DNA from: Nemertoderma westbladi
Lineage: Eukaryota; Animalia; Xenacoelomorpha
Assembly (NCBI GenBank): GCA_032718475.1
Contig: JAUCBJ010005067.1
Location: 1-61,125, forward strand
DNA: 61,125 nt
Reading direction: 5' to 3'
Shown here: piece by piece, positions 5,381 to 49,100 of the stretch
How positions within the stretch are numbered: the stretch's first letter is position 1
How the letters are laid out: each line of letters starts with the position of its first letter
Notes under the pieces: generated by a model
Told to the model about the DNA's origin: nothing
Seen by the model: the letters and a program-made list of their open reading frames with translations, nothing else
Database searches by the model: none
Made by a program: the position numbers and the translations under genes

Positions 5381-6212
5381 GGCGCAATCACTCGGGGTAC
5401 AGGGGTAGGCCTGTAGTCTGGTAGTTGGTAGTACTACAGTCAATTATCAGATTATTGAAGTACCGGTATTGCAGTATTGAATTAGCCTAAGCTGCTAAGC
5501 CGGTAAGCGCTACTGCAGTACTGTGTACTGTACTGAATTACAGCTAGGCCTTTTGGCCTTTGCCTTGTCTCGTTCTCGTAGTGTACTATCATGAGAACAA
5601 GACATGACTGGGGGGGGGGGGGGGGGCAGTGCCCCCAAAGCCCCCCGCACGGTACGGTCCTGCGACACAGCAATTCAAGGCGGTTCTTGTAATTTATTTA
5701 TTGCTATATAGTACTGTAGCTTTCCATGTATTGTTTAATCGCCGTTTTATGGATCAACTGAAATGGTGCGAATATACTGTGTTGCAGTGTTGCTTTGTAT
5801 TTAAGAGTCTGTCTGGCTGCATTGCAAAGTTGGGTTGTTTATAATTTGTTTGTAATTTGACTTGTTTATAATTTGATTTGTTTGTTTGTGTATTATAGGT
5901 AGGCTTACTTATACTGTATATATATATATCACATTATTTTGTTGAGTTTATTGTAAACTAGAACATTAATTTGTTACGGTTGTTTGCGAAAATAAAAATA
6001 AATAGTATAAATTAGCTACTGAAATGTATGACTCAACCAGTATAGATTTTATTTAGAGCAATTATTGTTGCCAGTCACCCGTTCCTGCAGGCAATGTTCT
6101 CCTTTTATTTCATTTTATATGTTTTATAGATAATACAAGAGTGTTTTTTTTACATTTATTATTATTTAAAGCTGCGCCAGCTCCTCATAATGCCGAGAAA
6201 GATCAGATCAGA

Positions 6213-15200: not shown

Positions 15201-18200
15201 ACTACTAGGATCGGCATGCTGCATTGCAGCTGCATTTTTAAGAATGCTGTGCCGGCTTATCGACAAAATTGCACCGCCACAACTCCCTATCACCCATGAC
15301 ATTTCTAGATCATCCGCATCTTCAAGGCCAGTGTCCTTTAAGATGCGTCTCAAGAAAGTCATGGGCTGTCCACCATGCTTATTCACTCCATGAGGCTGCC
15401 AAAGTACAAGATTATGCACTGACTGGTCCTCACGGCGAAAGCAATGTCCTGCAAAGCGGAGGCGATTTTGTTCTAGTGTCAAGCTTGGGGGAACCAATGA
15501 AACACCTCCAATGTTATATAGTGTATGGTTGGAGATGTGTGCATTGTACTTGACACAATGAACCCGGCGTAGCATTCTTGTGAATGTGCCATCCAGAGAT
15601 TTGGTGTCCTCAGCAGTTAGAGCCCAGCATGGACTCCCATAGAGGAGTACTGGAACTACTGCTGCTCTAAATAATCGGACCTTAAGTTTCCGATTAATTC
15701 TCGGTGACTTCCAAATCCTGGAAAGCCTTTTCAAGGCTGCCCATGCCTTTCCCTTACGTATTCGAAGGTCCTCACCTGACTTCCGGATCCATGATCCCAG
15801 GTAACAGAAGTCATCCACATGCTTAAGCATACCATCTTTTGAGCTTATGCTCATCCGATCAGAGACTTGCTGAGGACTTTCAAAGTTAACTGTCAAAATT
15901 TTGGTCTTTCTGTAGTTAATAAAAAGACCAACACTAGAAGCAGCATGTTCTAATGAGCTGAGGAGCCGTTGGGCTCCCTCTAGTGATTCTGAGAGTACTC
16001 CTAAGTCATCAGCAAAGTCTAGATCAGTTAGGTACTTGGCAGGATTTCCTCGACTTCTGGAGCCAGCAGGTGGAGATATCATCACCCCATCATCATTATG
16101 ATGATCTAAGGACATGCGTAGAACATAGTCAACAACAATTATGAACAAGAATGGTGCAAGTGTGTCTCCCTGGAGGACGCCCCAAAACACTTCAAATGGT
16201 TCTGTGTCACCGTCAACAGTAGACACACATGTTGTCGAACCATCGTATACTGATCTGATTGCTGCAATAATTTCATCAGGAATCCCATATAATGAAAGTA
16301 TGCTGAACATACGTGAGCGAGAGACTGAATCAAAGGCCTTGAAGAAGTCAACAAAGATAACAGCCAGATGCCTGTCTTTCTTTTTTGATAACTCTTCAAT
16401 TATCCTTCTAAGTGCCAAAATGGGCTCCATGGTCCCACGACCTTTACGGAACCCATTCTGATTTCCACGGAGCAGTCTCTCAATGGGATCCCTGATGCGA
16501 TTTAATAGAATTCTATTGTATAACTTTGCAGCAATCGAGATCAATGAGATTCCCCGAAAAGAACCATAGAGTATTAGGTTGCCCTTCTTGGGAACTGGCA
16601 CCAACTTATTTGTTTTCATTTCTTGTGGGACTCTTGTTGTTCGGTACATATCTACTATGATGGGATAGATGAGCTTTAAACACTCAGGTATTTTAAAGAC
16701 CTCAGGGGGAACGCCATCTACTCCACTGGCACGATTGGTCTTGCACCAAATCTGACAGGTTGTATCCGCCATTGTTCGCCATAGATACACGGCGAGTTAT
16801 ACGATTATAAATAATATATGAAAACCATTGTAAAATATTAAATTAATTAAATATTATGTAATTAAACATCCTTAGACTGTTGACTACTTTAAGACTGTTT
16901 GATTACCGGGATTTTAAAATAGTTTCCAAGTGAGTATAAGTTTCATCTGGGGAGTATAGTGTCGACCGCACTGGGAATGAGTTGTCAGATTTTGTGCGTA
17001 AGAAAACTTTACTTTTTTACTTTTGCATAAATTTTACGTAGTCAATAGAGCAAGATTCTGAAATTATTACAGTTGTAAGTAAAAGAAGCTCTATTAGTCG
17101 CAAGCGGAAAAAGTGATCCCTGAGCAAAACGAAATCTATCTTCATTTATTGTTTTGGTTAGAAAACACCGTTCTGCACTGTATACTGCCCCTTTCCTATA
17201 ATGTTTTAAATGATTGAAATTACTTTTAAAACCACAAACACCTTTTATGTTTGCGATAATTTTTAGCCATTAACTCCCTAAAGTACATTACATGTTTAAT
17301 GTAAAATTATTTGTAGTGTTTTTTTTTATATATAGGAGCTCAGGTGTTCTGGTATCCAACGTTGTTAGATAGAGCTTGTCCTTTAATCAATCACATAGAC
17401 TTGCAACGGGGATGCGAAAATATAGGAGCGGGTTTCCTGTTCGGCATAGTAACCGGAATAGCTGGGTTAATAGGAGTCTCATTGGGAAGCCATATAGCTA
17501 AGTCATGGAGACAGACCAATCACAGAGCAGACCCAATGGTGTGTGCCTTGGCATTGATTATCTGTACCCCATTGATGTTTACAGCCATGTTGACCTCAAG
17601 GTAAATGATATATATAAAACAAATTCTACTACATTTAAAAAAAATATATATATAATAATATTATTTATTATTAGATTATTAAATAGGTTCTGATAGAAAA
17701 CTGAAAGAAACATTAATGTCACAAAAATATGTACGATACTCTTTAATAATTTACTTAAACGAAAGTGATTTTGGGAAACTTTTGAGCTATCAACTGTAAT
17801 TGGAACTATGCCATCACTTTTATTGGATTATTTTTAGATACTTCAGAATTCTAACGTGGATTCTTATCTTCTTCCATGCGATGTTTCTCGCGTTCATCTG
17901 GGGAGTGTCGGTGGACATCATCATCTACGTGGTACCGCCACTTCGACGGAGTACCAGTCAATCGGTCTTCATCCTGACACAACATCTCCTAGGCGACGCG
18001 TTCAGCCCGCTAATAGTCGGCGCAATGGCCGACGGTTACAAAAGCATTATCGATGGAACCACAGAAAACTCGAACCAATTCTCCGAATTCTACGGCTTAC
18101 AATCCGCGCTCCTCATATCTCTCATCGTCTTCGTGGGGGGAATTGGTAGCTACTTAGCAACTGCTTTAAACGTATCTATCGATAAGAAACAGGCAGCCGT

Positions 18201-18327
18201 TCTCACAAAGGGACGGACACAAGACGTTTATGATTGGTCGTCTGGTCTACTCGACAAGGACATTGGTTACGACGGTTCGCAAACTGCCGTTGAATCCGAC
18301 GAACTTTACGAAACAGCGGCGCCGTAA
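12281..18327 (+). CDS. SPNS1: Spinster-family MFS lysolipid transporter (SPNS1-like), 7 exons, 505 aa
   Basis: join(12281..12399,13216..13350,13797..13975,14235..14387,14999..15175,17336..17600,17838..18327) = 1518 nt. All junctions are GT-AG and in phase. Spinster motifs: NLVSFMDR, GYLGDRYNRK, GVGEASYAIVAPTIIADLF, G(A)GLGY, RADPMVC, YVVPPLRRST, HLLGDAFSP. Exact paralogue uncertain. Confidence 0.9.
12560..12650. repeat. Imperfect palindrome/hairpin (~44-bp arms, 3-nt loop) in Spinster intron 1
   Basis: tattgtttacgtggta...gtccac taa gtggac...taccacgtaaacaata. A third partial arm lies at ~12445-12460. Confidence 0.8.
13557..13624 (+). mobile_element. 68-bp extreme 5'-truncated copy of the RTE-like LINE 3' end, with 15-bp TSD
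   Basis: Matches the reverse complement of ~15206-15276 (1 indel, 2 mismatches). Flanked by tatggtcaaggacaa at 13542-13556 and 13625-13639. Confidence 0.88.
15196..16760 (-). mobile_element. 5'-truncated non-LTR retrotransposon (RTE-like LINE, reverse transcriptase) in Spinster intron 5
   Basis: RT motifs GVDGVPPEVFK, FRGISLISIAAKLYNRIL, QNGFRKGR, FVDFFKAFDSV, GVLQGDTLAPFLF, LDFADD, FCYLGS. (TAG)n 3' tail at 15196-15207. No endonuclease domain. An apparent 1-nt frameshift near 15305 hides the natural end VMGDRELWR...HS*. Confidence 0.93.
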
Positions 18328-20584: not shown

Positions 20585-21802
20585 ATGTCTTCTGTGGGGA
20601 CTTTGTGTTTGATCGGTGGAGGTAATGGGAGCCATTGTATAGCAGGTTTAGCGGCTCAAAATGGATGGACTGTTAATATATACACGGCCTTCGAAGAGGA
20701 AGTAAACTCGTTGAAGAAGGCCATTAACGAAGGTATTCAAGTTATCAACGAGAACGACGTTATTACCATCGGTCACATTACCAAGGTCTCTAATAATTAT
20801 GCCGAAGTCATCCCACAAGCCGATATTGTAATTCTTTCTCTACCGACATTCGCCCACTCCTCCGTGCTAAAAGATGTGGCGGAGTTTGTGAAAGAAGATG
20901 CGGTTGTGATGGCAATCGAGGGATGCTGGTGGACTAAACCAAGAGAGGTGTTTGGTAACTTTAAAGCGGGTGTGAGTTTCGGTATCTGGGAGGTTATGCC
21001 ATGGGCCGTGCGAATACAGGAGTACGGTAGAACAGTGAAAATACTAGGAGCGAGTCGAGCCCCCATATCTGTGGCGTTCCACTCCGAACCCAAGAAGTTT
21101 GGAGGGTCGGAGGGGGTAGCATCGGTTCTATACGGGATGATAGGAATGGAGTTCCTAGTGGCTGATAGTCCCTTGTCTGTCGTTATAGGTTGCGCATGTC
21201 ATTCAGTCCATCCTGCAATAACTTACGGAAAAGCTCTGGAATGGGACGGAAAACCATGGAAAGAGTCAGAAATACCACCGTTCTACCACGGGATGACGGA
21301 AAACATCGCAGAATTAATTAACGAGGTTCACGGAGAGTTTCATTCGGTTGCTGAAATGATTCGAAAAGAAACGACTTTCCAATTGAAAACTGTAAAACCT
21401 GAGATATCTTATTTCCTAAAAAATCGTTACTGTGAAAAAATAGCAGATGATTCGAGTTCAAGGAGTTGTTTCAATACGAACGCGAGTTACACCGGAATAG
21501 CGTTGCCGTGCGTTCGAGCGGACGACGGGACCTACACGCCGGACTACAACCAGCGGTACGTAGCCGCTGACGTTCCCTTCGGGATGGTACCGGTCATGGG
21601 AATCGGCGAGTTAATGGGCGTCGCCATGCCATCCTGCGCGAAAGTTGTGGAATTCCTACAGAGTAAGATGGGTAAGGAATACGTGGCCGGATCCGAAATG
21701 AAACTCGTTGGGAAAGATGTAGGAGAGACTCGGGCACCGCAAAGTTACGGAATTACAAACAGAAAGGAACTTATTGATACGTTAACAGCTGGTCTAAAAT
21801 AA
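20585..21802 (+). CDS. Octopine/opine dehydrogenase family protein (NAD-dependent), single coding exon, 405 aa
   Basis: Rossmann motif LIGGGNGSH, ADIVILSLPTFAH, MPWAVRIQEYG, catalytic-His region VHPAITYG, WDGKP, RYxxxDVPFG and GKDVGETRAPQSYG, as in invertebrate octopine/tauropine dehydrogenases. Confidence 0.9.
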   Translation: MSSVGTLCLIGGGNGSHCIAGLAAQNGWTVNIYTAFEEEVNSLKKAINEGIQVINENDVITIGHITKVSNNYAEVIPQADIVILSLPTFAHSSVLKDVAEFVKEDAVVMAIEGCWWTKPREVFGNFKAGVSFGIWEVMPWAVRIQEYGRTVKILGASRAPISVAFHSEPKKFGGSEGVASVLYGMIGMEFLVADSPLSVVIGCACHSVHPAITYGKALEWDGKPWKESEIPPFYHGMTENIAELINEVHGEFHSVAEMIRKETTFQLKTVKPEISYFLKNRYCEKIADDSSSRSCFNTNASYTGIALPCVRADDGTYTPDYNQRYVAADVPFGMVPVMGIGELMGVAMPSCAKVVEFLQSKMGKEYVAGSEMKLVGKDVGETRAPQSYGITNRKELIDTLTAGLK

Positions 21803-28100: not shown

Positions 28101-31100
28101 CAAATAGCCTTTATAGTAAAATTTGAAAATTTGTAGCCTCCCCCTAGCGGCTGGCGGCGGAATTAAAGATTTCACTAAAATTGCTACTACTCCCTCAATT
28201 TTGGTCCAAATTTCTTGAAACCAACTTTTTTGGACTCAGCGTGATCGACTCTACAAATGTTATCTTATAGAATTTTTAATTAGCCAATTTTATTTTAATT
28301 AATTAATTTAATTTAATAATTATCATATTTTTAATTAAAAATGGCTAATTAGAAAAAATGGTAATATTTATCAAAATTCCATAAGATAACTTTTAAAGAG
28401 CTTCCAAAGCTCGTTCGAATGAGCCATAAACGAAGAAAATTGGTTGAAAAATGTCGGAGGAGTAGTAATTTGAAAATGAAAAATGTCATTCCGAGAAAAT
28501 GCCCTTCAAAGTTTAAACCGTCCCGCCAAAATTGGCTGTCTGTGTTCTGGTTGGTTAATTATTTCTGGCACGAATGATGCACACCAACGAGCTAAAATGT
28601 TCATTACTGGGGTTTTCGGGGTCGCTGATTTCATTTCCGATGTCAGTTTTAATTTTTGGTGGAATCTAGTCTATCTGTCTGTCTGTCGGTCTTCTGTCTT
28701 TCTTACAATTTGACGGACAGACCGTCATACGGAAAAACAGTGATAACTCGAGAACTGAAAGAGGTCTCACTAAGCGGTTTTCAGATTTGTAATCCTCATT
28801 AAATTCTGCTCTAGGTGAGATAAAGAAACAATAATTTGAAAATTTTACCTGAGGGGGGGTATACCCCCCCCCCCCCCCCCCTTAAGTATTCCAAATGTTA
28901 CAAAATTAGGAAACATTCTAAATATATTAACCAAAAGCATAATTGCCCTTCAATTGTAGTTGAGCCATTGAAGTGGGAGGGAGTTGGTCAGTAACCTCGA
29001 TAAATCATATAATCTCATATAATCTCTTGAAATCACTCTATCACAATTAATGAATTTAAAAACTATTCCAATTTAGAAAGAAATAATTTAAGGATCACTT
29101 TACATGTTGCAATTATATTACAAGTATCAGGTATTTTCTTGTTACCATGGCAACCAAAAAAATGTCGAATACCTATACATTTATCAAACAGTGTTTTTAA
29201 AGATTTCAAGCACTATTTCATGATCTGTATTGAGAGGATATAGCAGACGTGGTTTCTTAAATTCCTAATGAAAGTGTCAAATTCTGTAAAACTTTAGACA
29301 CTAATAGCCCCCCCCGCCCCCCCACACACACCCCACAATAATACCCCGCAAAATAATAATTTGATTCGGAAATTCAGAATATCATAATAAATCACATAAA
29401 AATCCTGATTTACAACAACTTAATTTACATGACACATAAATCTAACATAATTAACAGATAATACAGTTTCTTAAAATCAAACTGTTCCAGACAACACTAT
29501 TACATCATGATAAATTAAATAATTTCCAAATCAATGCTATGGAGCAGTTGGGGGTAATAAAAGTAGGCCTACTGATTAACATAAAGCAAAAAGCAAGAAC
29601 ACAGCAAGTGGTTTTCAAAAAGATTTAGTATTGTATAATATAATATGCGAAAGTCAATTTCATATTTAAGCATTTTCTATTAACTTTCAAATTTAGAAAT
29701 CGTTTGATGTAACAGTACTAATTATACTATTGTATTGTAGATTCTAGATTGTAGCGTTTACAGTTAATTCTGCTAATTGGTCTCTATCTATTATTTAATA
29801 TTATTTCTCGCCACAGTGATGATTGTAGACAGGACGTAGATAAGCATAGTGTAATGGTTCTGATTAACTAGGATCTGTATATGATCACAAGTTAGGATTT
29901 AATAAAAATCACAATAAGAAATAAATACTAAAAATACATAAAATAAATCAAACTCTCACCATCTGACGATATTGACAAATATATGTTAAGATTTATAAGA
30001 TCACAGTGAAGTCTAAGTTCATTAACATTAAATAAGATTTAATTTTCATTAAGTTTCACTTTAAATAAAATATGGAATCGAAATTTTTACATTTGGACTA
30101 TAACAACTTCCAGGAACTATCCGATTTATACAGAAATTGCGCAACACTTAGTTAAGCCAATTCCACAATGGCGACACAATTTAGCGGGGACTGACTTCGG
30201 AGCAAACTTATTGCAGCCAATGCAACGGTCCTGTTTGGGAGGGTACTTATGTTTCATGCAGAGCCACGCTCCCGACTCTTGGCTGAAGGGCACATTGTTT
30301 CCACATAACACGCACGCATCCTTGCTGCATCCACCTCCTGGCTTAAATATCCCGGGACGGGATTGACAAAACTGGCACAATAAGGCTTTACTGCACATCT
30401 GTGGCATTGCAGTTTGCACTGCTGTAGTGCAGCGTAATTTTGACATAATCATCTGCCTCTGCATAAGATTCATGTTAAACGACCGATGATCAGACCGCAT
30501 AAACTTCAGTAACAAACCTTTTTGATTTGATTGCATTAAATGATGTGGTAACTCCTGTTGAACCACAAACATCGTTTTGCAATGCTGGTAATAGTATGTA
30601 GACAGCTTTTTATGGTAAGGGAATGCGGCATCTTGGGTGCTTAAAAATAAGGATCGGGTGACGTTTGCAACGGATCTGTGACGTAGGAATATCTTGTCGG
30701 GAGTCCCATAGGACGAAGCATTCCTTAAAAATGTACTGATTCTGCGTTTTGCTATGATAAATTTCAAACCCGGAGCGGGGATGTTGTTATCAATATCTCC
30801 TAGTAGGAGTTTCAATTCGACCACATCCAATCCGCCCTTGGCACAAGCAACATAACACAAAATATCCTTGATAAAGCCTGTTATATCCTCAGCAATAATT
30901 CTCAAAATAACTTGTTTCAGAAGATCTTCTAGACTATCTGGTAAGTCACAAATTCTTTCAGTAAGCTTTTCAAATATACCAAATACCCGAAGCTCCTCGC
31001 ATGCAATAGATAACCAAAAAGGATTGCCGGCACCTTTTCTTGTGACCAGCGCAATTTGTTGACTTCTGTCCAATTTTTTGTTAAAACGGCGAAAGAAATG

Positions 31101-34100
31101 GTTCACCAACTCTGTCTTACTAGTCTCTTTAAATTCAGTCAAATTCAGAGACCAAATTATTTTCGAAGAAAATAAGATTTTAGACGGCGTTAGCCCTTCC
31201 GTGGTCGTACTAATTAAGATGGAGACATTATGAGGGATTTTGGAAGGCAACCACAACATATGTTGAGTAATTTGACTATCACTAAGCTCATTGGCTGCAT
31301 CTATAACAATAACGTATTTCTTAGCGGGATCTATGTTATCAAATAGTTTGTTTTTGAAATCGGAATAATCAACATTTTGGTGAGGGATATATTCCACACC
31401 GAGATATTCACACAGCCGTCCGAATAACGTATTGATCTCCAAGGCTAACGTATTGCATCCAACGAAGTGATAAAAAACCTCATGTGTGGTGCATTCACTT
31501 AACCGCCGACAGACCTCAGCAACAAGTGTAGACTTCCCCATTCCAGGTCCTCCGTTTATAACTAAAGGACATTTACAAGCGTGTGGTTCATACTCGTCAT
31601 CTTCAGTAACAGAATCTTCACTCTTTTTCTTAACTAGCAATTTCTTATTGATTTCATCTTTTAATAGAAAGTTCAACGCGGAAACAATTTCTTCATCAAC
31701 ACCAATAACAAACTCGGATTTTTTACTTATATGGTCGATATGTGGGGAACTCTCGAGGTAGTTTACTTCTACGGGTTCCTTGATTACTTCAGGAAATTCC
31801 TTATCAATAGCACGCTTAAAAAAACTCAGAACATCATTTGCTAATGAATCCATGCCTTTTAGAACCACATTACCATCAACAACACTAGCCACAGACGGTT
31901 TGTAACTAACTAATTGACCACTTCTTTCAAATTGAGTTCTTAATCGTGATTTAAGCTCATTAAACTGATGTTGACTAGAAATCACTCCTTCTTCAAACTT
32001 CTTAGCGACATCAACAGGAAGGTCCTTCATAAAATCCTCTTCACGAAGAGCAAAAAAGCAATTCTTAGAAGATTTCGTTCGCAACGCCCCTCTAATTATT
32101 TCCATATGAGTTATAGAGACATTATCAACCCAGTCGAAACGACTTTTAATCTCTGGAGACAGTAGATGAGGCTGAGGAACCCAACCATACCGACCACCTA
32201 GTAGACACAGGAAGTAAGGGTCGCCGTCAGTTTCCGAATAACACTGCTCCAACTCGTCAAGACAGATGGCCACAGTTTCGTCTGCGTTCGTGTCCTTCGG
32301 CACCCCCCAACGGAGGTCTGTCTCATACAGTCGCAGTCTGCGCGACTCGCAGTATTCCCTCAGCTCCGGCAGCACGGTCTTTATGATGAGTTCCCGCTCG
32401 TTGAACATGTCGCTAAATGTGGAAGAGATAAAGAAGCGAAGAACCCCCCAACGCTCGCGAGAAGGGCGTCTTAGTGGCGGGGCGTCAGCTCGGCCTGAGG
32501 ATATTTGTTTATCTATAGTTGCCCAGGACAACCGCACGCGATTCATAAGCTCTTCCTTGGTTTCCATGATCAATTTACGGTACTTATTACTCAATTAAGA
32601 CTACGATTATTACTCAAAACACTAACACGAGAAAAAATGTTAATGTTAAAATTAATTAAGTCCAAATATACTAACTATTTAATTTACTCAAAAAATAATA
32701 TCTCCTCCATAGAGAATAGACCGTTTAAATTAAAGATTAAAGAATAAATAAATAAATAAATGTTAAATAACGATGTCTTTCACGACAATACATACTGTGT
32801 TTTAAATATTATCTTATAGAGTTTCGGTAAAAGAAGTATATAGTCAGTCTAATTCAAATAACTCCATATTGTTTAAATAAGATGAACTAATTAAAATTAT
32901 CTGTAGTCGTTTGCTATACTATTGTATCTGTGGTCGTTTGGTATAATATCCTCAACGTACAAAGTCTCATATTTATGACGTTTGAAATTAATTACATAAA
33001 ATAAATGGGATAAATAAATAATTTTATCACACAAGGTAAAGAATATTCATTAAATCAATTATTATCAAATCTCTGCATTGTAAAACACTGAAGTAACAAA
33101 TATTATAATCGAAACAAGTAACTGGAACTCGAACTCGAAGTCTACCATTTTTATATAAAAACGTCTCGTCACTTAAACGTCGTCATCAGCCTTGACGCAC
33201 AATAAACTCATACAGCAGACCTTGCAGACAAATACTTACATAAACAAAACAGAGACATACTTACAAAACAAAAAGACTAGTGCTACATTAACGAACACAT
33301 CAATACAAAACAACAACAGTACGCCTACATTAGTGTACGAGACTCGTGTACCATACATAACATCACCAGACAAAATATTATGTACAATGTACATACCAAC
33401 CCGTGGTTCACGCACACCAAGTCAGTGAAACTTATTATACAGCCCTTAGTACCGGTACGTTTCAAATAGGCATCGAGTGTGCTGACTTTGATCACGAATT
33501 CCGAAGGCCAAGCCCTCTCTTAGCGAAATTATCTTGTCTGTAATTTTCTACTAGACTCATTATTCTGTTATTATATTGAAAGAGCCTGAGATGAGATATT
33601 GACGTCCATGATAGCACGCAAAATTAAAATTCATACACACATAAATTGATAAATACATAAATATAAATTGTGCCATGGAGAAGCCATCCAACACCAATTT
33701 GCACCCGGATAATCTATTAGATTTGCAAAACAATTATGTCAAAGAAACAATTATTTATTACTACACATAGGCATACCAGTTAACCAGTGTGTTTGTCTTT
33801 GTCTCTATCTCATAAGGTAGTCAATGTTAATATAGTGTTTACAAAAGCAGAAGAATAGTCAACATCAACATTATCCCTTGCAACATGGCCTACTATACTA
33901 ACTACTATACTGTACTATATATGTACCAATGTAGGCCTATACAGTCATAGATCAGTCTTTCATTTTAGTCCATCCTATTGTTTTCTCCATTTCCATGGAG
34001 CTTAGCGCTTCGGAACTGGCGGTAATTTCAAAAATATAAACGTACAATACGTCATGTACCGGTGCAGCGGTGCGGTACTGGTATAAATTATGCACCTAAG

Positions 34101-37100
34101 ACATTGAATTTTTTTTTCTTGTTTTGCTTTTACTGCCTAAGCCTGTCAGCCAGTCTGCCAGTACAGCAAAGCAGTAAGCAGGATGTTACCAGTATTCAGT
34201 CTTCGGATGTCTACAGGTCTTGGGTCTACTGAATTTTAAATCGGAGTTTTATCACTCGCTGGTACATGTGGTACAGTACAGTACGGTTTGGCATAAATAG
34301 ATACAACTACCTGACTACGGCAGTCTGACAGTGCTGCAGTGTGTAGGTCTGTAGGTTAGGTTATTTAGTGGTAACCCCGTCAGCCCGTTCCCGTTAGCGT
34401 CGATGGCAGGATGGACTGTTAGGTTAGGGGGTAGCGTAGCAGCGGTATGCATCCCTATTGTAGTAGTAGGGACTACCAAGTACGGTAAGCAGCTGGTATA
34501 GCGAGCAACTACAGACAGACTTGACGGTTCTTGAAGTTGCTACTTAGTATCGCCAGATCGCCAGAGTTTTACATTTTTTACAGGTATGTCTACTTTAGCC
34601 TACTGGTACTGTATTCATAAACGTGCATGGATGACTCTGCGACCATAGGCCTACCAGATATTGGATTTAAATGTATTGTTTGCATTCAACAATTCATAAC
34701 TACTGACCATATTACCGCCACATATTGTGGGCACTTTTTTCATCACGACTGTTTGAATAAATGGGTAAGCAAGTCTCGAACTTGCCCAGCTTGTCGCACA
34801 AAGATAACATCCAATAAGGTCATACAGCGAATTTACTTCGATGTAAGTTCTTCCCCTGCAGTTCCTTGCGAATCCATTGAGAGCCTGAAGGTGAGAAGTG
34901 CAGAATTAACCGCTGTGCAAGACAGGCAGGAAACTGAAATATCGTCGTTAAAAGCCAAAAATTCAGTACAAAAATTACAACTAGAAGAGGAAATAAAGAC
35001 AAGAGATTCATGCGAAAGGTACAACGCGAATCTCGATCTGTCAATCTGTAATCAAAATCATATCATCGACCGATTTAGAGGTAAGGTTAAAGAAAGGGAA
35101 AAATGCTTGAGTGAAATCAAAATCTTGAAGGCCAAGTTGAATGAAGAGGGATATTCTGAATTTAATAATATTATTGAGGCTCAAAGCCGACTGGATATAA
35201 CTGATTACAAGTCGTCCAAGACGAATGTTAAAAGTCAGGTGTCATTTTGTTTAGAGGTGAAGAATGAAACAAATTCCCTCTTGGAAAGTAAAAAGAAAGT
35301 TGATGAGGCAATCATTAAATTGATCGGCATCAGCGATAATAACAAGACGCGACGAGAACGATTGTCACGGGAAGTTGACGCGAAACGAAAAGAAGTCACT
35401 GCCTTGAAAACTCGTGGCTCTTTCGAAACAAAAAAACTAAATCAAGTAAAAACAGAACTATCTGAATTAGAATCTCGCATTAAAGAATTGACGGTTGTTG
35501 ATAATCCTAGCAATAATAGGGTATCCAAGCGACGGCAGGCGCCGCTGGTTAACGAATATCTCGAAGTAAAGAAATTAAAGTTAATAAGCGAGCCAAGTGG
35601 GAACCAAACCCCATTGCTATCACTCCCATGTAAAAGTTCCACGAATTATGTTAGTTATCATCGCCCTAATCTAATCAGAGAAACGATACCTAATCTCTTG
35701 AATCCCAAGACAACAGACCATATTCCGAATCTTTCTATGCCTAATACAGTCCCCCTACTCCCGCTGAAAGCTACCTCTTCAAAAAGTAAATCCGGTTTAT
35801 CCAAAGAAAATAAACAAAAGAACTTACTGCAGAAATATTCTGAAGTACATCGTCCAAAAAGAGAAGGAATTTTAGAGACTCCTTCCACTTACAGGATGAA
35901 TAAAAAAGGTACGAGTAATAATACTGCTGAAGCCAACGGCAATGCCACAAACTTAATTGAACAATCAAATCCATCATTCCTCGAAGCAACAGGTAAAGAA
36001 GTTCGAGAGAAACGAGTAGAGAGGAGAGTTGTGTCGAGGAATAATATGGAGCCAGAATGTCCAGATAGTCCGTGTTTTAGTGACTTTGATGAAACTATAG
36101 ATGCAGTTGTCTACGACGACGCCGCCGATGAGAATTTAATGAACGACTTAAAAGAAGCCGCAGAGGTTGAAAAGATCCTGAAAGACCTAGATGAGGATGA
36201 CGTCATATCGGCTTCAACATTTGTTCCTATGGAAACGATACCCGAATGCGATACAGAGAAGGAGAGTGCCAGTAAGCGGTCGACAAATAGTCGTAATGTG
36301 TTCAAAATAATTAATCCAGAGAATTTGGCTGTTCCCGAGGGAAAAGTTCGCCCGTTGTCAATCCGAGAAGCTGTTCCGGCAAAAAAACGACCGGCAAAGT
36401 CGGTCCATAAGAGCAAATCCCAGGACATTCGCAGTTTTATACCCAAAACCAATCCGATTCCAGTTATTAAGAAACCGGGGCTAATAAAGTCCAACTCCGA
36501 CATACGAACATTATTCGGTCGGGTCGTCAACATTAATGACCAGGAGAACGTGGAATTCCGTAACAAGTCTGGAGGTCCCAGCGAGGGTGACAATGATAGT
36601 GTGATAGTTATAGATGACCTTATAGTTATAGACTGAGGTTCCTATTGTATAATAAATTGTTTTATAATGTTGTAAATGGCCTATTTAATATATAAGTGCA
36701 GTTTCTTTCGTTTTAAAGAGTTTTCTCCACGGATAATAATATTTTAAGTTATAAAACGAGGATCTTGATTATACTTTTTTTAAAGCTTTCGCATTGTTTA
36801 TATACGAATAAATCAAATAAAACCGCATTCGATAGTTCGTTAATTCACAATAATTATGGTTGTTGCCAGCCACACCCGAAATTACTGACATTTTAGGAAG
36901 TCAGAAATAATTAGCATAGAAACAATAGAACCACTCAATGAAACTTATTTGGTTACTTCATAGCAAACATCTTACCAGAGTGACGTCACCATTTTATACA
37001 GCAACCGACGTTCCAATCGTCTTTAAAAATTTGAATTCTTCAGAATTAAACAGTTTTTTTCAAAATATATTTTTGTTTTAAGCACTTACATTAGATTATT

Positions 37101-40100
37101 ACTGGATTAAGGTATTTTGGTCCGCCGCGCTATTAACTTTTATTGGCAAATTGATATTAGGTGAAGGGGGGAGTGGCCAAACCATTTCCAAAATTTTGCA
37201 TATTTTATATGTTGCTTTAATTTTTCTATTGTAATACTGTAGTGGATGTGAGTATTAGTGATGTAGTAGGATTGGTGAAGCTGATTGGTGAAGTGTCAAA
37301 CTGAAAAACCCCAACCCAGCCCGATTTAAAACCGAAATTGACTCACCTGGGTAAGTAGAATTGTGTGAGAATATACAATGTTGATTTCTAGTTATATAGT
37401 TTTTAGTCGCCGAATTAGAAATGAACTTTGAATGAAATTTATTCATTATAATTTTCTATTTTATCATATGTAAACCAGTAACCACCGTAGTATATAATTT
37501 TTTGGGTGGTGTTTGGGAGCGGTTTAGGGAGTAATTGAAGATCCTTGTTTATTTTTTCGAAAATACGCGACAAAAAAATATTGTGAGATCAATAAACTAT
37601 ATTTCACATTATTTATATGACTCCCTAGTATAGTAACTACGTAACTTACCCTGGATCGGGTTACTTCCAGACGTGGTTTCTTTGCCAACCGGTCTTTGCG
37701 ACTCAAACTACGCCGGTAGTGTGCGTCTTTCGATTTATTCAACGTCAGCCCTTCTTTGGACATTTCCTTATCAAACTGATCTGCATTCCTCTTCAAAGCC
37801 TGAAATAAAAACGAAGGTGGTATAATGGTATTATAATATATTAGGTGTTAGCCCACTCCAGTGGTATAACATTAGGTGTTAACCCACTCAGGTGCAATAA
37901 CATTAGGTGTTAGCCCACTCCAGTGGTATAACATTAGGTGTTAGCCCACTCCAGTGGTATAACATTAGGTGTTAGCCCACTCGAGTGGTATAACATTAGG
38001 TGTTAGCCCACTCAGGTGCAATAACATTAGGTGTTAGCCCACTCAGGTGCAATAACATTAGGTGTTAGCCCTCTCAGGTGCAATAACATTAGGTGTTAGC
38101 CCACCCGGGTGCAATAACATCAGGTGTTAGCCCACTCAGGTGCAATAACATTTTAGGTGTTAGCCAACTCCACTCCAAGCCTACTCCAGTGGTATAAAAT
38201 TAGGTGGCATCCCACTCTAGTGGTATAACATTGAGTTACAGTGACAGGAATGAGGGACAATATACTTCAAGGGTGTTAGGTTAAATAGACGTTTATTATA
38301 TGAAAACGTATATTATATTAAAACGTAAATTATACAATATGCAATATGGCAAACTTAGTATAAATATTTACTTTGTAATATTACTGTACATACATGGTCA
38401 GCAACGCGATCCATTCATTAACCCTGGCACAGCCAATATAAAGTAACTCCGGAAATATGATTTCAAATAATCCCACCCAGTTATACCTTGGTTGCTAGGG
38501 CAACCAAAGATAACAAACTTCAGTTCTCTTTAGTGAATGAGTGCTGCTTATTGCAGTATTGAATGTTCTGTTACTGTAAATGTTTCTTAATCTTAGTAAT
38601 TTAGTATTTATTGTATTTAATTAATGTTTATTTTTACAATTATTGATATTTAAAGTTCTGCCTTAGTTCCATGTCAAACGCAAATAAATACTATTGAATT
38701 TATTACCGAAAACTTCGAAATGACTATGACTCTCCGTTCTACAAACAACTGGCCATTGTTGCTATCGTTTATTCAATCTGTGATCTTTCTAATACTAATC
38801 ACAAGGATCGCAAGTCAGACGGTCGCTCCAGCAGACCCTATAGATTGCTACCAATGCCAATGGTGTTACGGAAACAATGATCATTTCTGTATGAACAAAA
38901 CTGGTGAATCGTCAGAAAGCTGTAAGAATGAGAGTATACCTGACGGCCCTGTAACTAAATGCGTCGAAAGCCGTTGCTACTATATCGCTATGAAGATCGG
39001 TGGTACCTTAGTGACCGTATCACGGGGGTGTCTGGAGGACAACAAGGAGCTATTGGGTGTCGCGTCTGCCGACATACCAGACGACGATATAGACCAATGT
39101 GTGGAACTGGTAGACAATCCAGACTCGAGGTTTAGATTAGGGAGTTCTACTTCCAGTATGTGTATGTGTTACCGATTCTGTAACTCTCCCTTTTGTAACG
39201 CGGAAGCAGTAGATACCAGTGGAGGTTCCCAACCATTGTACTCGTTCCTTTTGCAGGGCCTCGTTGCGTTCTACTTTATATATTGTGCTGTGATCCGGGG
39301 ATGATCCATGTTAGTTAAAAGGAATAAATACAAGTTTCTTACTTCACAATCCAACGAATACACTCTTATCTCGAAATCGATTTAATTGATTATATGTTTA
39401 AAATAATTTTCACAATTCTAAAAATAAGCTATTAATAATAATGTCTAATAAGCCAACTGTCGATAATATGTTGGATTTTATTTCGGTGTATTTTTCATGT
39501 TTTTTAGTTTGATGCTATTGTAAATGATGATAAAAGAAATGTAGTAATTTCAATTGACCACTACAATTCAGTTATTTTTGTGTGAGTGTATTGAGTCTTA
39601 GGAGGGAAGGTGTAAAACGCGGATCCGGATCCAGATTCCAAAATTATCAATTAAGGGAAAGGAGCAGGTTACAGTGGCACGTTATTTTAACCAAAACAAT
39701 AAACTAAAGTCAATAGAACAGGTTACAGTTTTATTTTTGGGAGTTATAAAAATGTAAAAAAATCGACTTCCGTTGGGACAATGTTAAATGTAGAATCCGG
39801 ATCCGGATCCACGTTTTACTCTGACCCGTCTTAGGAGTGAGTCAGGTTGGCGGAATGACAGCGAGTAAAAAGTGATGACTAGAAACTAGAACTAGTGAGT
39901 TGATTATAATAGTACCGAGCGAAATTATTACTTTATAAGTTACAAATTGAAGTAAAAGATAGTGGATTTTCCAGAAGATAAAAAAACTTTACATAATTTT
40001 TGTATAGGGGGGAAACCAGACGCAAAACAATCTCAGCGAATTAATATATCTGTCTTCTCATTGTTAAATCAATTTAGGGAAATTATCAGGTAACAATGAT

Positions 40101-43100: not shown

Positions 43101-46100
43101 CGACTCCCAGCCGGCCGGATCCCGGTTGCCGCTTGACTGCTTGAGATGTTTTTCCACTACAGCACCGAAAGCCTGCGCATAAACCCGCAAGGTTGCAAAT
43201 GACTGAATGAGGTGAAAAAATCGGAAATGTGTGAAAAACACAAAAGTTTGCGGTAAACTGTGCAAAACATCAAAAAACTTTTTCATTATGAAAATGTACC
43301 GATACAGTATATTTAACAATTGATTGAGGTATTTTCTAAGTATTGATTGTGTGTCCTGTATAGTTTAACTTTTGTATAATTCAGTGCATCGATGATCAAC
43401 CTATTCAACATTCAGTATACTATCTAACTTACTTGTAGTTACTATTTATTGCTGCAGGCCTTATTAACTGATTAAGGACGCTGTTAATATTTACTTTGTA
43501 TATGATTTACTTCTTACTTTGTGGGCGCGTTTATCGGTAGATGCGCGGCACATTGTAGGCCTACAACATTGCGCGACTGTAAAATTGTGCGCTATTCCGT
43601 TGGCCCGTGATAGTTGGATCTGTCTGTGTGTTTTCCATATACTTTCGTTATACCGGTATTGAAAAATAGGTCTCACCACGGATCAACAGAGTTTCTACTC
43701 CCAATTGGAATTTCAGATTTTAGGATTACCTAATAAAATTACATATTTTCGTTCGTCCAGAAAATAATAGTTCAATTTTCGAATAAAATATTGTACCTTA
43801 GCACTTTATATTATTACAGTTGTGGTCTAATTTTAAAATGATGCAAACTGTAGTCTTATAAAGTGATGGGTTAAAAGTCGAAGACTTGATGTAAATAGAA
43901 ATTACATGACTACAAATTACAGTTGATAAATAGTGTTTTGTATTGTTAATTCAATTTGAGTCAAACAAACTAGCATAAACATAGCCTTAAAGTTGGATTG
44001 ATTTCTGGAAACCACATAAAGTGATACAAAACAGGGCGATACCTAATAATAGACAAGTAAAAATAAGTGTTAATAGTTATACCAAATACGTTTAATACCT
44101 TTGAACTGTTTCGGTGAGGAAACGTCGAATACCACAAGCGATGTCAAGTCTGTATCAGAGTGTTCGCGATATGATAAGCAACGACGCAATGGACAATAAT
44201 GGCGGCGAAAGATCATCCTTGCTAACAAACGGTGTGTCGGCGCCTATAGTTACCGCTATAGTTACTGGCCACTCTGAAATCCTCAAAAACCTTTCTAGGC
44301 GTCTGCACCACTGTAACACTAGGCACCGCATTGGGCTCCAGTTTCCTACCAAACATACACACAAGCTACTTCAATCTCGACAACTCATCCTTCAACGTGT
44401 TCGGACAGTTCATTAACTTCTTCCTCTACCTGGGTTGGGAACACGATGTGAGTTCGCACCATAACCAATTAAACAACTCGGCGACACAACTCATATTCAT
44501 GAAGCTTCAAGGCAAACCGTTTACATTCATGTCCGTTTACACCGTTCTAACCTTCTTTATAGCCATACTTGTGGATGCTCTCAACCCCCTGTTCAAGACC
44601 TTGGGTCTGTCTGTAGTACGCAATTGGTTAATGAATGGGATTCTCATCCTACATTGGGTCATCATAGCCTACTATATGCTGAGGTATATACGGGCCGTTA
44701 GGAAGTACAATAAACGTGTACAAGAGATAGACACCAGCACAGACCGCGTATAGAGGTTCGTATAAGAGATAAACACCATCACAGACCGCGTATAGAGGTT
44801 CGTACAAGAGATAGACACCAGCACAGACCGCGTATAGAGGTTCGTACAAGAGATAGACACCATCACAGACCGCGCCTAGACGTTCCCTAACTACATAGAT
44901 ATACACCATCACAGACCGCGTATAGAGGTTCGTACAAGAGATAGACACCAGCACAGACCGCGTATAGAGGTTCGTACAAGAGATAGACACCAGCACAGAC
45001 CGCGCCTAGACGTTCCCTAACTACATAGATATACACCAGCACAGACCGCGTATAGAGGTTCGTACAAGAGATAGACACCATCACAGACCGCGTATAGAGG
45101 TTCGTACAAGAGATAGACACCAGCACAGACCGCGCCTAGAGGTTCGTACAAGAGATAGACACCAGCACAGACCGCGTATAGAGCTTCGTACAAGAGATAG
45201 ACACCATCACAGACCGCGCCTAGACGTTCCCTAACTACATAGATATACACCATCACAGACCGCGTATAGAGGTTCGTACAAGAGATAGACACCATCACAG
45301 ACCGCGTATAGAGGTTCGTATAAGAGATAGACACCAGCACAGACCGCGCCTAGACGTTCCCTAACTACATAGATATACACCAGCACAGACCGCGTATAGA
45401 GGTTCGTACAAGAGATAGACACCATCACAGACCGCGTATAGAGGTTCGTACAAGAGATAGACACCAGCACAGAAGACGTTCCCTAACTACATAGATATAC
45501 ACCAGCTCAGACCGCGTATAGAGGTTCGTACAAGAGATAGACACCATCACGGACCGCGTATAGAGGTTCGTACAAGAGATAGACACCATCACAGACCGCG
45601 TATAGAGGTTCGTACAAGAGATAGACACCAGCACAGACCGCGCCTAGAGGTTCGTACAAGAGATAGACACCAGCACAGACCGCGTCCCTAACTACATAGA
45701 TATACACCAGCACAGACCGCGTATAGAGGTTCGTACAAGAGATAGACACAATCACAGACCGCGTATAGAGGTTCGTACAAGAGATAGACACCATCACAGA
45801 CCGCGCCTAGACGTTCCCTAACTACATAGATATACACCAGCACAGACCGCGTATAGAGGTTCGTACAAGAGATAGACACCATCACAGACCGCGTATAGAG
45901 GTTCGTACAAGAGATAGACACCATCACAGACCGCGTATAGAGGTTCGTACAAGAGATAGACACCAGCACAGACCGCGTATAGAGGTTCGTACAAGAGATA
46001 GACACCATCACAGACCGCGTATAGAGGTTCGTACAAGAGATAGACACCAGCACAGACCGCGTCCCTAACTACATAGATATACACCAGCACAGACCGCGTA

Positions 46101-49100
46101 TAGAGGTTCGTACAAGAGATAGACACCATCACAGACCGCGTATAGAGGTTCGTACAAGAGATAGACACCAGCACAGACCGCGTCCCTAACTACATAGATA
46201 TACACCAGCACAGACCGCGTATAGAGGTTCGTACAAGAGATAGACACCATCACAGACCGCGTATAGAGGTTCGTACAAGAGATAGACACCATCACAGACC
46301 GCGTATAGAGGTTCGTACAAGAGATAGACACCAGCACAGACCGCGTATAGAGGTTCGTACAAGAGATAGACACCATCACAGACCGCGTATAGAGGTTCGT
46401 ACAAGAGATAGACACCAGCACAGACCGCGTCCCTAACTACATAGATATACACCAGCACAGACCGCGTATAGAGGTTCGTACAAGAGATAGACACAATCAC
46501 AGACCGCGTATAGAGGTTCGTACAAGAGATAGACACCATCACAGACCGCGCCTAGACGTTCCCTAACTACATAGATATACACCAGCACAGACCGCGTATA
46601 GAGGTTCGTACAAGAGATAGACACCATCACAGACCGCGTATAGAGGTTCGTACAAGAGATAGACACCATCACAGACCGCGTATAGAGGTTCGTACAAGAG
46701 ATAGACACCAGCACAGACCGCGTATAGAGGTTCGTACAAGAGATAGACACCATCACAGACCGCGTATAGAGGTTCGTACAAGAGATAGACACCAGCACAG
46801 ACCGCGCCTAGACGTTTCCTTACTACATAGATATACACCAGCACAGACCGCGCCTAGAGGTTCGTACAAGAGATAGACACCAGCACAGACCGCGTATAGA
46901 GGTTCGTACAAGAGATAGAAACCAACACAGACCGCGTATAGAGGTTCGTACAAGAGATAGACACCAGCACAGACCGCGCCTAGAGGTTCGTACAAGAGAT
47001 AGACACCAGCACAGACCGCGTATAGAGGTTCGTACAAGAGATAGACACCAGCACAGACAGCGCCTAGGCGTTCCCTAACTACATAGACACCAGCACAGAC
47101 CGCGCATAGAGGTTCCATAACTACTGTTGGTGTGTACCAGATTGCTTATCTTAACAATGTGATAATATGAGATTGGGGGGGAAACTCGACACAAATCCCG
47201 CCTTGGCGAATTAATATCCCGCATCAATGTTAAATTCTCAAATTAGGGAAAGGAGCAGGTTACAGTGGCACGATATTTTAACAAAAACAATAAACTAAAC
47301 ACAATAGAACAGGTTACAGTTTTGTTTTTGAGAGTAAACAGTTGTTATTTGCGTCGTATTTCCCCTGGAGAGGGATGAATTTTTATTGCGTCCAGTTTCC
47401 CCCCCTATTTGGATGATATTTACAGGACCTATCCCATTAGATGTGACAATGTATTCAAATAATCTCATGCAAAATCTGGAACGGGAAAGCAAAAAAACAG
47501 AACGGGTGGGTACATTGAGTACTTCTAATTAGAGAATACTTTTACCGTTTTTGATTTTAGGTTAGAAAATTATGCTTTTCTAATTATTAATACTCATCCC
47601 ATCAGTAGGCTTTCAATCACCACTTATATTAATTGTTGCATATTAATTGAATTATTTTTATTGTAATGTAATGTTTAATAAAGCAGTAACAGCACTAAAC
47701 ACCAATAATGAAGAACCAACAGATAAAAACAGTATTATTATTTTAATTGTATCAGTAATAACCGAATACATGTGAAGAATACCAGACTTTCTGCCCTTAT
47801 ATTTCACTTTGCAGTTACCCTCATGTGAAGAATACCAGACTTTCACCAAAAACACAGGTTACAGAAGGGCCGAATCTAACCAAAACAATAAACGAATTAG
47901 TATATGTACAGGTTATAAGACAGAAATAAGCGTTATAAAACACTTAATAAAGATAAATTAAATAAAATATAAAATCTTCATAAAATTCCAATAAAAAGTC
48001 GACCGAAAAGTGAATTCCTGGTATTCTTCACATGGGCGAGGTAATTGATATAATGCATTATGGCATAATTTTTGCAATTTTTGTTTTTTTATTTATTATG
48101 TGATCAGATTTACAGATTTTTAATAATATTGGTTTGCTGTGCAAGAGATATAGGCGTTAGTTTAGTAGTAAGTTTAGAAGTTAGTAAGAGTTTCTGGGTT
48201 TTTTTAGTATTAGAAGTCGTAATAAATCAGCAGGACAGGTCAATATCAGGTAAACAAACTTTTTTTACGTTTTTGCTCTGTAATGAATAATTATTTGTAT
48301 AACTTTCTTTAAAATGGTGGATTGTTAAATATAATATAGTGTTTAATGTTAACCCACAGAAAATTATTATAAACTTTGTTTGTTAGCCAGTGATTGATTT
48401 ATGTTTGCAAAACTCTTAAAGGAGGTCGTTATAAAGTTCAGTATGTCACGCCTAGACGGGCCTGCTGGCCGACTTGCGTGACACTTTGTGACATGGGTTA
48501 TCCGTTTTTTTTACATTCAACTCAATCACAATCAAATCATTCCTTCAATCTCTTCGAATGATGAATTAAACTATTCTTTAGCTATATAGCTTCGTACACT
48601 CCCGATGCCCAGGTACATTTAAATTTTAGAAGTGTTGCAGGGGGGGGGGGGGGGGGGGCATATTAATAAAAAAAGGGTCGGTGCCAAGATCGAGTTGAAT
48701 AGCACTTACCCTTCGAGGCATTACAGGGTAGGAATCCCTATTGAGTATTCGTTTCATCTTTATTTGTGCTCGATTCTCGCGTATCTCTGCCGCTAGATGG
48801 CGAACTTCTTTCATTTCTTCGTCGTCGCTAACCATATCATCATCGTACTCACCTAGGCAACACGAATTAATTATAATTATACTTCCCGACATAACAACCC
48901 GCCTCTTTCCTAAGTACTCCTCCCTACTTCCCGACATACCAACCCGCCTCTTCCCTAAGTCTCTCCTCCCTACTTCCCGACACACCAACCCGCATCTTCT
49001 CTAAGTCACTCCTCCGTACTTCCCGACACACCAACCCGCATCTTCCCTAAGTCTCTCCCCCCTACTTCCCGACACACCAACCCGCCTCTTCGCTAAGTCT

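What the first reader, a model, noticed from the sequence alone, without database searches (positions are those of the whole stretch)
30126..32567. NLR-like architecture: DUF4062-NACHT NTPase fused to a PHF5A/Rds3-type triple zinc knot
Seen: the last ~100 aa (30126-30440) read C..LCQFC..ACVLC-x14[17 protein letters not shown]12-CRHC-x6-CC, i.e. one Cys, five CxxC/H pairs and a terminal Cys. Known (recalled): PHF5A/Rds3, the SF3b branch-point protein, has this 12-ligand layout, including CDEC-NYGSYQGR-CVIC with the same 8-residue xYxxxQxR linker. TEP1/NPHP3/NWD-type DUF4062 NTPases normally end in WD40 or TPR repeats. Inference: a STAND-like switch with a spliceosome-derived zinc knot at the sensor position, which could be an integrated decoy or an SF3b/RNA-sensing module in innate immunity or RNA surveillance.
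Basis: partly seen in the sequence, partly recalled or inferred. Interest (0 to 1): 0.8.

Follow-up and report, generated by a model that had tools for sequence, protein, structure and literature searches.

The report
Animal NLR-type NADase with PHF5 knot
This animal gene, conserved from placozoans and jellyfish to lungfish and newts, joins a predicted NAD-destroying enzyme domain and an NLR-type ATPase to a zinc domain predicted to fold like the splicing protein PHF5A, which likely serves as the receptor's trigger rather than as a splicing decoy.

Summary
Observation confirmed. 30126-32567 (-) is an intact 813-aa ORF: DUF4062 + NACHT ending in twelve near-invariant Cys/His ligands. The AlphaFold model of the tail (pLDDT 91) matches only PHF5A/Rds3: Foldseek ranks 1-17; 2 of 48,161 chains at Z>=2, Z 5.9. 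Profile alignment is in register and beats 150 of 150 Cys-fixed shuffles. Tail-bearing proteins form one clade that roughly follows animal phylogeny.

DUF4062 is now known as the NIR NADase; the TEP1 catalytic Glu is kept (E156), but two of three TEP1 active-site Arg are not, and activity is untested.

The decoy/SF3b reading is weak: the claimed xYxxxQxR linker is in 1 of 51 rows, PHF5A's basic RNA-binding tail is missing, and a ~14-residue insert sits between C26 and C30 equivalents. Spliceosomal origin is unproven.

Ten paper searches found no description of the architecture. The scan noted the same family earlier in an oyster (e1-8655438). New variant of a known kind; ligand unknown.

The parts
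30126..32567 (-). Intact single-ORF gene, 813 aa: NIR(DUF4062)-NACHT-helical domains-PHF5-fold zinc domain
   Evidence: full-length relatives at 98-99% coverage; 15 of 22 listed coding variants synonymous
31758..32450 (-). NIR / DUF4062 TIR-like NADase domain, about aa 40-270 (C-terminal edge approximate)
   Evidence: Pfam E 4.2e-10; human TEP1 domain 11gz_A E 2.1e-19, family profile E 4.6e-38
32100..32102 (-). E156, aligned to TEP1 catalytic E1008
   Evidence: alignment with numbering checked against R908/R954/R976/E1008 of the preprint; E in 21 of 22 rows with a residue
32190..32192 (-). R126, aligned to TEP1 active-site R976 (R908 and R954 equivalents are not kept)
   Evidence: R in 20 of 21 rows with a residue
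31089..31565 (-). NACHT NTPase, aa 335-493; Walker [10 protein letters not shown] at 31527-31553, Walker B IVIDAANE at 31287-31310
   Evidence: G342, G344, K345 invariant in 25 of 25 rows, D423 in 24 of 25
30432..31088 (-). Helical / winged-helix region of the STAND core, aa 494-712 (domain names inferred), with CEELR and ELPHHL motifs shared with TPR- and WD40-ending relatives
30144..30431 (-). Twelve-ligand triple-zinc domain, aa 713-808, predicted PHF5A/Rds3 fold
30315..30365 (-). Family-specific insert between CxxC1 and CxxC2 (17 aa here, 15-19 in the family, 3 in PHF5A) with conserved F..P....N[KR]D residues

Best explanation
The gene encodes an ancient animal NLR-like (STAND) protein in which an NIR domain, likely an NAD-cleaving enzyme, and a NACHT ATPase are followed by a twelve-ligand zinc domain predicted to have the PHF5A fold, which likely acts as the sensor that switches the enzyme on. 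Shown: the domain order, intact Walker motifs, kept catalytic Glu, twelve conserved ligands, one clade across animals. Predicted: the PHF5A-type fold. [quoted passage not shown] It would not plug into SF3b as PHF5A does.
For: Domains. NIR as an oligomerisation-activated NADase, E1008 catalytic: bioRxiv 10.64898/2026.05.01.722283 and 10.64898/2026.09.04.749371. E156 in 21 of 22 and R126 in 20 of 21 rows; NIR is the best-conserved region (0.60 vs 0.45-0.54). Fold: pLDDT 91, five models 89-91; Foldseek ranks 1-17 are PHF5A/Rds3-sized chains of SF3b/spliceosome entries, probability up to 0.99, next unrelated hit 0.03; VIA-align 2 of 48,161 chains at Z>=2; Z 6.4, rmsd 3.1 A, 79 aligned with 5syb_A, model 17-120 on chain 8-90, putting C713 on C11. 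hhalign in register, E 5.7e-5; score 29.6 vs Cys-fixed shuffles mean 14.4, max 24.9, 0 of 150 reach it. Position: all 18 hits of 560 aa or more with the domain have it within 10 residues of the C-terminus behind a NACHT-type domain, where the sister clade has TPR repeats. Core charge K+R-D-E median +8 in 53 rows vs -1 to +2 in PHF5A 11-85.
Against: No activity was measured. TEP1 R908 (mutation lowers activity) and R954 are not kept. Human NWD1, NWD2 and NPHP3 were inactive under the conditions tested although the Glu is kept in almost all eukaryotic NIR domains. Sensor role rests on position only; non-ligand residues of the zinc domain are poorly conserved (0.36). The basic charge may only offset the thiolates. 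Structural scores are middling (Foldseek best E 0.018; Z 5.9-6.4, under the tool's caution level of 8), and AlphaFold2 may lean towards PHF5A from its training set. Knot topology and zinc pairing could not be read, as no coordinates are given. Apparently one gene per genus with vertical descent is unlike fast-expanding immune NLRs. One run carries a frameshift allele.
Confidence: 0.45

Rival explanations
1. Non-immune scaffold or signalling switch like NWD1/NWD2/NPHP3: the NIR domain is silent or weakly active and binds partners, and the zinc domain is a protein-docking module, perhaps at a membrane or cilium.
For: Three of four human NIR-NACHT proteins were inactive; R908/R954 equivalents missing; one clade following animal phylogeny; 9 of 19 family N-termini begin Met-Gly and all 8 TPR-sister rows begin MGCG, a possible myristoylation signal (motif meaning recalled).
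Against: Glu, R976 equivalent and the SSTF/DLRWG motifs are nearly invariant over the animal tree; the window protein and the six named mollusc/bivalve rows shown lack Met-Gly.
Confidence: 0.3
2. The zinc domain is only a structural cap or oligomerisation/lock element for the STAND core; sensing happens elsewhere or through nucleotide state.
For: Only the ligands and a few insert residues are conserved; it follows the helical domain with no linker.
Against: A conserved non-ligand motif in the insert (F741, P743, N748, K749, D750) and a consistently basic surface suggest a binding surface.
Confidence: 0.15
3. One reading: a PHF5A copy integrated as a decoy or SF3b/RNA-sensing module that reports attack on the spliceosome.
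For: Same predicted fold and detectable homology; CVICDSYV of PHF5A lines up with a C[VAI][IVL]CG-x-x-V segment of the family; basic surface.
Against: PHF5A samples are 63-94% identical to one another while this domain is 18-25% identical to PHF5A/Rds3; the basic C-terminal helix G93-R110 that contacts intron RNA (PMC5458519) is absent, 46 of 51 rows end within 10 residues of the last ligand; a 15-19 residue spacer replaces the 3-residue C26-C30 spacer that holds K29 beside the branch-point pocket (PMC8302644); the Y36 position is F/W/Y in only 22 of 51 rows and N here; PHF5A F6-L12, which contacts SF3B5/SF3B1, is replaced by the link to the helical domain.
Confidence: 0.1

Closest known systems
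PHF5A / Rds3 (Pfam PF03660; PDB 5SYB, 2K0A)
   Same: C + five CxxC/H + C layout of twelve ligands; predicted same fold (Z 5.8-6.4, rmsd about 3 A over about 80 residues); in-register profile similarity over CxxC2-CxxC5.
   Different: Fused to a STAND ATPase; third motif is CxxH; spacers 16/17/15/10/16/7 (medians) vs 11/3/12/8/10/9; no basic C-terminal helix; basic core; below Pfam cut-off.
TEP1 NIR/DUF4062-NACHT module (PDB 11gz; bioRxiv 2026.05.01.722283, 2026.09.04.749371)
   Same: NIR next to NACHT and a helical domain; E1008 and R976 equivalents kept.
   Different: No TROVE/vWA, no WD40 propellers; R908 and R954 equivalents absent; activity untested.
NWD1, NWD2, NPHP3, TTC41 and invertebrate 'DDB_G0287407-like' NIR-NACHT-TPR proteins
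   Same: N-terminal NIR plus NACHT core; the invertebrate TPR proteins are the sister clade in the tree at 28-30% identity.
   Different: They end in WD40 or TPR repeats; the zinc-domain profile hits only 2 of the 101 proteins.
Bacterial Avs2-NIR and other NIR defence proteins (Swarozyc, Vulcan, Vesta, Evangelion)
   Same: Effector NIR gated by a C-terminal sensor; STAND core in Avs.
   Different: TPR, HEAT or AUX sensors; patchy horizontal spread, whereas this family looks vertically inherited in animals; no PADLOC model hit.

Membership tests
PHF5 fold (PHF5A/Rds3-like) | Twelve zinc ligands as single C, five CxxC, single C | tested here: met
   (third pair is CxxH); layout per PMC5458519
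PHF5 fold (PHF5A/Rds3-like) | Overall structure superposes on PHF5A | tested here: met
   predicted model only
PHF5 fold (PHF5A/Rds3-like) | Trefoil knot and permuted zinc pairing (1+4, 2+5, 3+ends) | not testable with these tools
   model coordinates are not returned; inferred from full-length superposition 17-120 on 8-90
PHF5A orthologue / SF3b subunit (PF03660 proper) | Pfam PF03660 score over 26.7 bits; high identity to PHF5A | tested here: not met
   no hit for the window; 8 of 62 members sub-threshold; 18-25% identity
PHF5A orthologue / SF3b subunit (PF03660 proper) | Basic C-terminal helix (93-110), 3-residue C26-C30 spacer, Y36 | tested here: not met
   for the PHF5A features
PHF5A orthologue / SF3b subunit (PF03660 proper) | Binds SF3B1/SF3B3/SF3B5 | not testable with these tools
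NIR (DUF4062) NADase | DUF4062 profile match and homology to TEP1 NIR | tested here: met
NIR (DUF4062) NADase | Catalytic Glu (TEP1 E1008) | tested here: met
   E156
NIR (DUF4062) NADase | TEP1 active-site Arg triad R908/R954/R976 | tested here: inconclusive
   only R976 equivalent kept; the preprint describes the triad for TEP1, not as a family-wide need
NIR (DUF4062) NADase | Hydrolyses NAD+ | not testable with these tools
   needs an assay
STAND / NLR-like NACHT proteins | NACHT domain with intact Walker A and B, N-terminal effector | tested here: met
   NLRC4 among the profile's PDB hits
STAND / NLR-like NACHT proteins | C-terminal repeat sensor (LRR, WD40, TPR) | tested here: not met
   no repeat family; zinc domain instead
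NLR with integrated decoy | Added domain keeps the targeted surface of the host protein; fusion is lineage-specific and sits beside a normal sensor | tested here: not met
   criteria are recalled from plant NLR-ID work, not from a call

The most novel reading that the evidence does not exclude
A pan-animal, so far unannotated NAD-depleting receptor, kept from placozoans to lamprey, bichir, lungfish and newt, uses a knotted PHF5-fold triple-zinc domain as a new class of NLR sensor, reading a nucleic acid or other polyanion through its basic surface and insert; it is the first animal family with the PHF5 fold outside the spliceosome, added as a single terminal exon.
Probability: 0.3. Interest if true: 0.85.

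Novelty: new variant of a known kind. Interest (0 to 1): 0.62.

Why it matters
PHF5A's knot was described as matched only by its yeast orthologue in the PDB (PMC5458519), and my wide fold search still finds only those two clusters. A second animal family with that predicted fold gives a handle on how the knot evolved and what else it binds. NIR-NACHT proteins became testable enzymes only in 2026 and their triggers are unknown; this family has a compact 100-residue candidate sensor rather than large repeat arrays, so ligand hunting with an NAD+ readout is practical, with orthologues in lab-accessible animals (Clytia, amphioxus, sea urchin, newt). Databases label these proteins 'TEP1-like' or 'TPR repeat-containing', which is wrong for their C-terminus.

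Tried and rejected
Pfam and PDB sequence searches with the tail alone found nothing useful; the 62-row profile did not list PHF5A among 10 PDB sequences at E<=10, best being a C1 domain at E 0.008 over half the domain, so sequence-to-sequence support is weak. A 3-row fold gave pLDDT 40 and was discarded. Word-based homologue searches for the tail found none (weak evidence). Viral structure library: no match under E 0.6. ESM Atlas: PHF5 clusters ranked 1-3 at 0.84-0.87 for the window tail, a lead only; no usable hit for the amphioxus tail. Prokaryotic relatives not found in what was searched: the one genome-contig hit is an SDR oxidoreductase sharing a short word; family profile 0 of 301 genomes; PF03660 2 of 401 genomes, both RecR-like ORFs by my reading; these were one bacterial phylum only. 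No relatives in viral contigs. Complex prediction of zinc domain against the STAND core: no verdict. No RNA holder listed, so expression is untested. Internal three-fold repeat: only a weak 15-column self-match. Literature: ten searches; none listed a paper on this architecture; 'zinc' and 'PHF5' occur 0 times in the main text of all three DUF4062 preprints; their supplements and figures could not be seen and may list such proteins. Retrogene idea rejected: neighbours (CSN3, octopine dehydrogenase family, RING gene) are also single long ORFs.
Full report
1. The observation. The window is animal-like DNA (COP9 subunit 3, RING, NOG1, LINE remnants); no whole genome is held. The - strand ORF 32567-30126 encodes 813 aa without interruption. 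Pfam gives DUF4062 at 45-138 and NACHT at 335-493, both over cut-off, and nothing for the tail. The tail has C713, five pairs (C731/734, C752/755, C770/H773, C782/785, C798/801) and C808. Three samples of the same organism hold the gene; of 22 coding variants listed (26 further rows of the table were not shown), 15 are synonymous against 22% synonymous sites, a ratio of about 0.13. One run has a one-base deletion at 31737 that would stop the frame at codon 280. No RNA run was listed.

2. The family. The best full-length hits are amphioxus (36% identity, 98% coverage) and Trichoplax (32%, 99%); both, and the long Clytia isoform, end in the same Cys pattern. A profile of three tails against 1.84 billion representatives gave 67 hits at E<=0.001. 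60 of 67 carry the five pairs and last Cys; the other 7 are truncated or unrelated. All 18 of 560 aa or more end within 10 residues of the last ligand and have a NACHT-type domain; 7 of the 42 short ones also include the preceding helical region, and most of the rest look like single translated exons. No other domain context was seen. I looked up 20 of the 66 new hits; 17 were named: two jellyfish, two hemichordates, three echinoderms, six molluscs, lamprey, bichir, lungfish and newt. No amniote, arthropod or non-animal was among them, but 46 were not looked up, so absence is not shown; the choanoflagellate relative claimed in note e1-8655438 I could not confirm. A quick tree of the NIR-NACHT part, with the zinc domain cut off, puts the 21 tail-bearing rows on one side of a branch with support 99, apart from 18 TPR/WD40 rows, sister to invertebrate TPR proteins; inside, Trichoplax, cnidarians, ambulacrarians, vertebrates and molluscs group as expected. 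The careful search did not finish, rooting is midpoint, and the window's row is a long branch of uncertain place within bilaterians. This is one old orthologous gene; copy number was not tested in whole genomes (Diadema shows several records).

3. The tail's fold. In a 62-row alignment exactly twelve positions are invariant or nearly so. AlphaFold2 with this alignment gives pLDDT 91.2, pTM 0.83. Foldseek ranks 1-17 are PHF5A (5syb), Rds3 (2k0a) and chains of 81-109 residues from SF3b and spliceosome entries that I take to be the same proteins; probability reaches 0.99, TM by target 0.44-0.59, best E 0.018, none at E<=0.001; rank 18 falls to probability 0.03. The Foldseek-independent search of 48,161 chains reports two at Z>=2, both such chains, Z 5.9; 5syb_A gives Z 6.4, rmsd 3.1 A, 79 residues, spanning PHF5A 8-90. 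These Z values are middling, but nothing else scores at all and the whole domain is covered. LIM, RING, PHD and FYVE entries appear only at probability 0.03 or less. Independent of the model, real PHF5A sequences were fetched from metagenome contigs; hhalign places CxxC2-CxxC5 on C30/33, C46/49, C58/61, C72/75 (probability 66, E 5.7e-5), and the score (29.6) exceeds all 150 shuffles with cysteines fixed (mean 14.4, max 24.9) and all 100 full shuffles. Homology to PHF5A is therefore likely (about 0.9 for the fold). Against: a profile search of PDB sequences did not list PHF5A, and knotting could not be read directly.

4. How it differs from PHF5A. Median spacers are 16/17/15/10/16/7 against 11/3/12/8/10/9. 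The biggest change is 15-19 residues in place of the 3 between C26 and C30; in PHF5A C26, K29 and Y36 lie at the branch-point/inhibitor pocket formed with SF3B1 (PMC8302644, passages; PMC5458519, passages and section 9). This insert carries the family's best conserved non-ligand residues (F, P, N, K/R, D). The core is basic, median +8 against about +1. PHF5A itself is 63-94% identical across my 12 samples, this domain 18-25% to it. That a clash with SF3B1 follows from the insert is inference.

5. The effector and switch. Two preprints show DUF4062 (NIR) is a TIR-like NADase in bacterial defence and in human TEP1, activated by oligomerisation, while NWD1, NWD2 and NPHP3 were inactive as tested (10.64898/2026.05.01.722283: abstract, first part, section 11 and passages; 10.64898/2026.09.04.749371: parts 1-3 of 5 and passages; 10.64898/2026.06.25.731849: passages). 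Numbering the TEP1 chain with an offset of 893 reproduces R908, R954, R976 and E1008; E1008 falls on E156 and R976 on R126, kept in 21 of 22 and 20 of 21 rows, whereas R908 falls on S52 (variable) and R954 has no Arg equivalent. Walker A is invariant in 25 of 25 rows and the Walker B Asp in 24 of 25.

6. Mechanism. Shown: domain order, conserved catalytic and ATPase residues, twelve ligands, ancient single clade. Predicted: PHF5 fold. Inferred: the zinc domain stands where sister proteins have TPR or WD40 sensors, so it most likely gates NACHT oligomerisation and with it NAD+ cleavage (0.45 for the whole chain). Rivals: silent scaffold (0.3), structural cap only (0.15), spliceosome decoy (0.1). 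The origin of the domain is open: the Atlas ranks a partly prokaryotic PHF5 cluster first (lead only) and three unchecked scan notes describe PHF5-like modules in bacteria, archaea and protists, but my own prokaryote searches, limited to one phylum and one pattern scan, found none.

7. Novelty. NIR-NACHT proteins are a known kind; the PHF5-fold C-terminus is not described in anything my ten searches listed (search listings only, except the papers named here and passages of PMC4999995 and PMC5091781, which treat Rds3 as a unique knotted fold). The library lacks most subscription papers, and the preprints' supplements and figures were not seen. The scan itself found the same family earlier in an oyster (e1-8655438), after my fold results were in; it is not independent evidence. 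Verdict: real, new variant of a known kind, interest 0.62.

Noticed in passing
window 31737: One contig of run X4 (depth 85) lacks one base here; the frame would stop at codon 280, just after the NIR domain, removing NACHT and the zinc domain. Runs X1-X3 are intact. A null or truncating allele, or an assembly error.
   Followed up: partly
short hits among P0113-P0174: 21 of 30 short hits have Gln four residues before the first ligand, mostly after F/L-rich text, vs 2 of 21 longer proteins. This looks like a translated splice acceptor (pyrimidine tract + CAG), hinting that the zinc domain is one terminal exon in many animals. DNA not checked.
   Followed up: partly
P0001, P0002, P0111, P0112, P0115, P0131, P0137, P0153, P0182; TPR relatives P0004-P0015: N-terminal Met-Gly (MGCG in the 8 TPR-sister rows shown), a possible myristoylation signal; missing in the window protein and mollusc members.
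   Followed up: partly
P0141 (Lottia): A partial second copy of the zinc domain precedes the full one; may be a gene-model artefact.
   Followed up: no
window 34627-36636 (+): Single-ORF 669-aa RING-finger protein with coiled-coil-like middle (TRAIP-like by recall), divergent from the finding's gene, 2 kb away.
   Followed up: no
window 20585-21802 (+): Single-ORF octopine/opine dehydrogenase family gene.
   Followed up: no
window 4070-5443 (-): COP9 signalosome subunit 3 as one long ORF; the genome seems intron-poor at several genes.
   Followed up: no
window 14937-16790 (-) and 53611-54777 (-): Reverse-transcriptase ORF of a LINE-type element, lying antisense among MFS-transporter-like exons (15100-18327), and a second LINE-like C-terminal remnant without Pfam hit.
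   Followed up: no
window 9769-11764, 44718-47115, 48880-50680, 57619-58837: Minisatellite arrays of 16, 42, 46 and 42 bp units; the 46-bp array appears to lie in an intron of the NOG1-like gene (48626-51978).
   Followed up: no
window 38720-39304 (+): Cys-rich secreted-looking protein with a weak Quiver/Ly-6 match, E 0.37.
   Followed up: no
ESM Atlas: Top feature hit is an 87-aa PHF5-family cluster with prokaryotic members (Bacteria 50%, Promethearchaeota commonest of 2 with a phylum); NOA36 family at rank 13. Leads for PHF5-fold relatives.
   Followed up: partly
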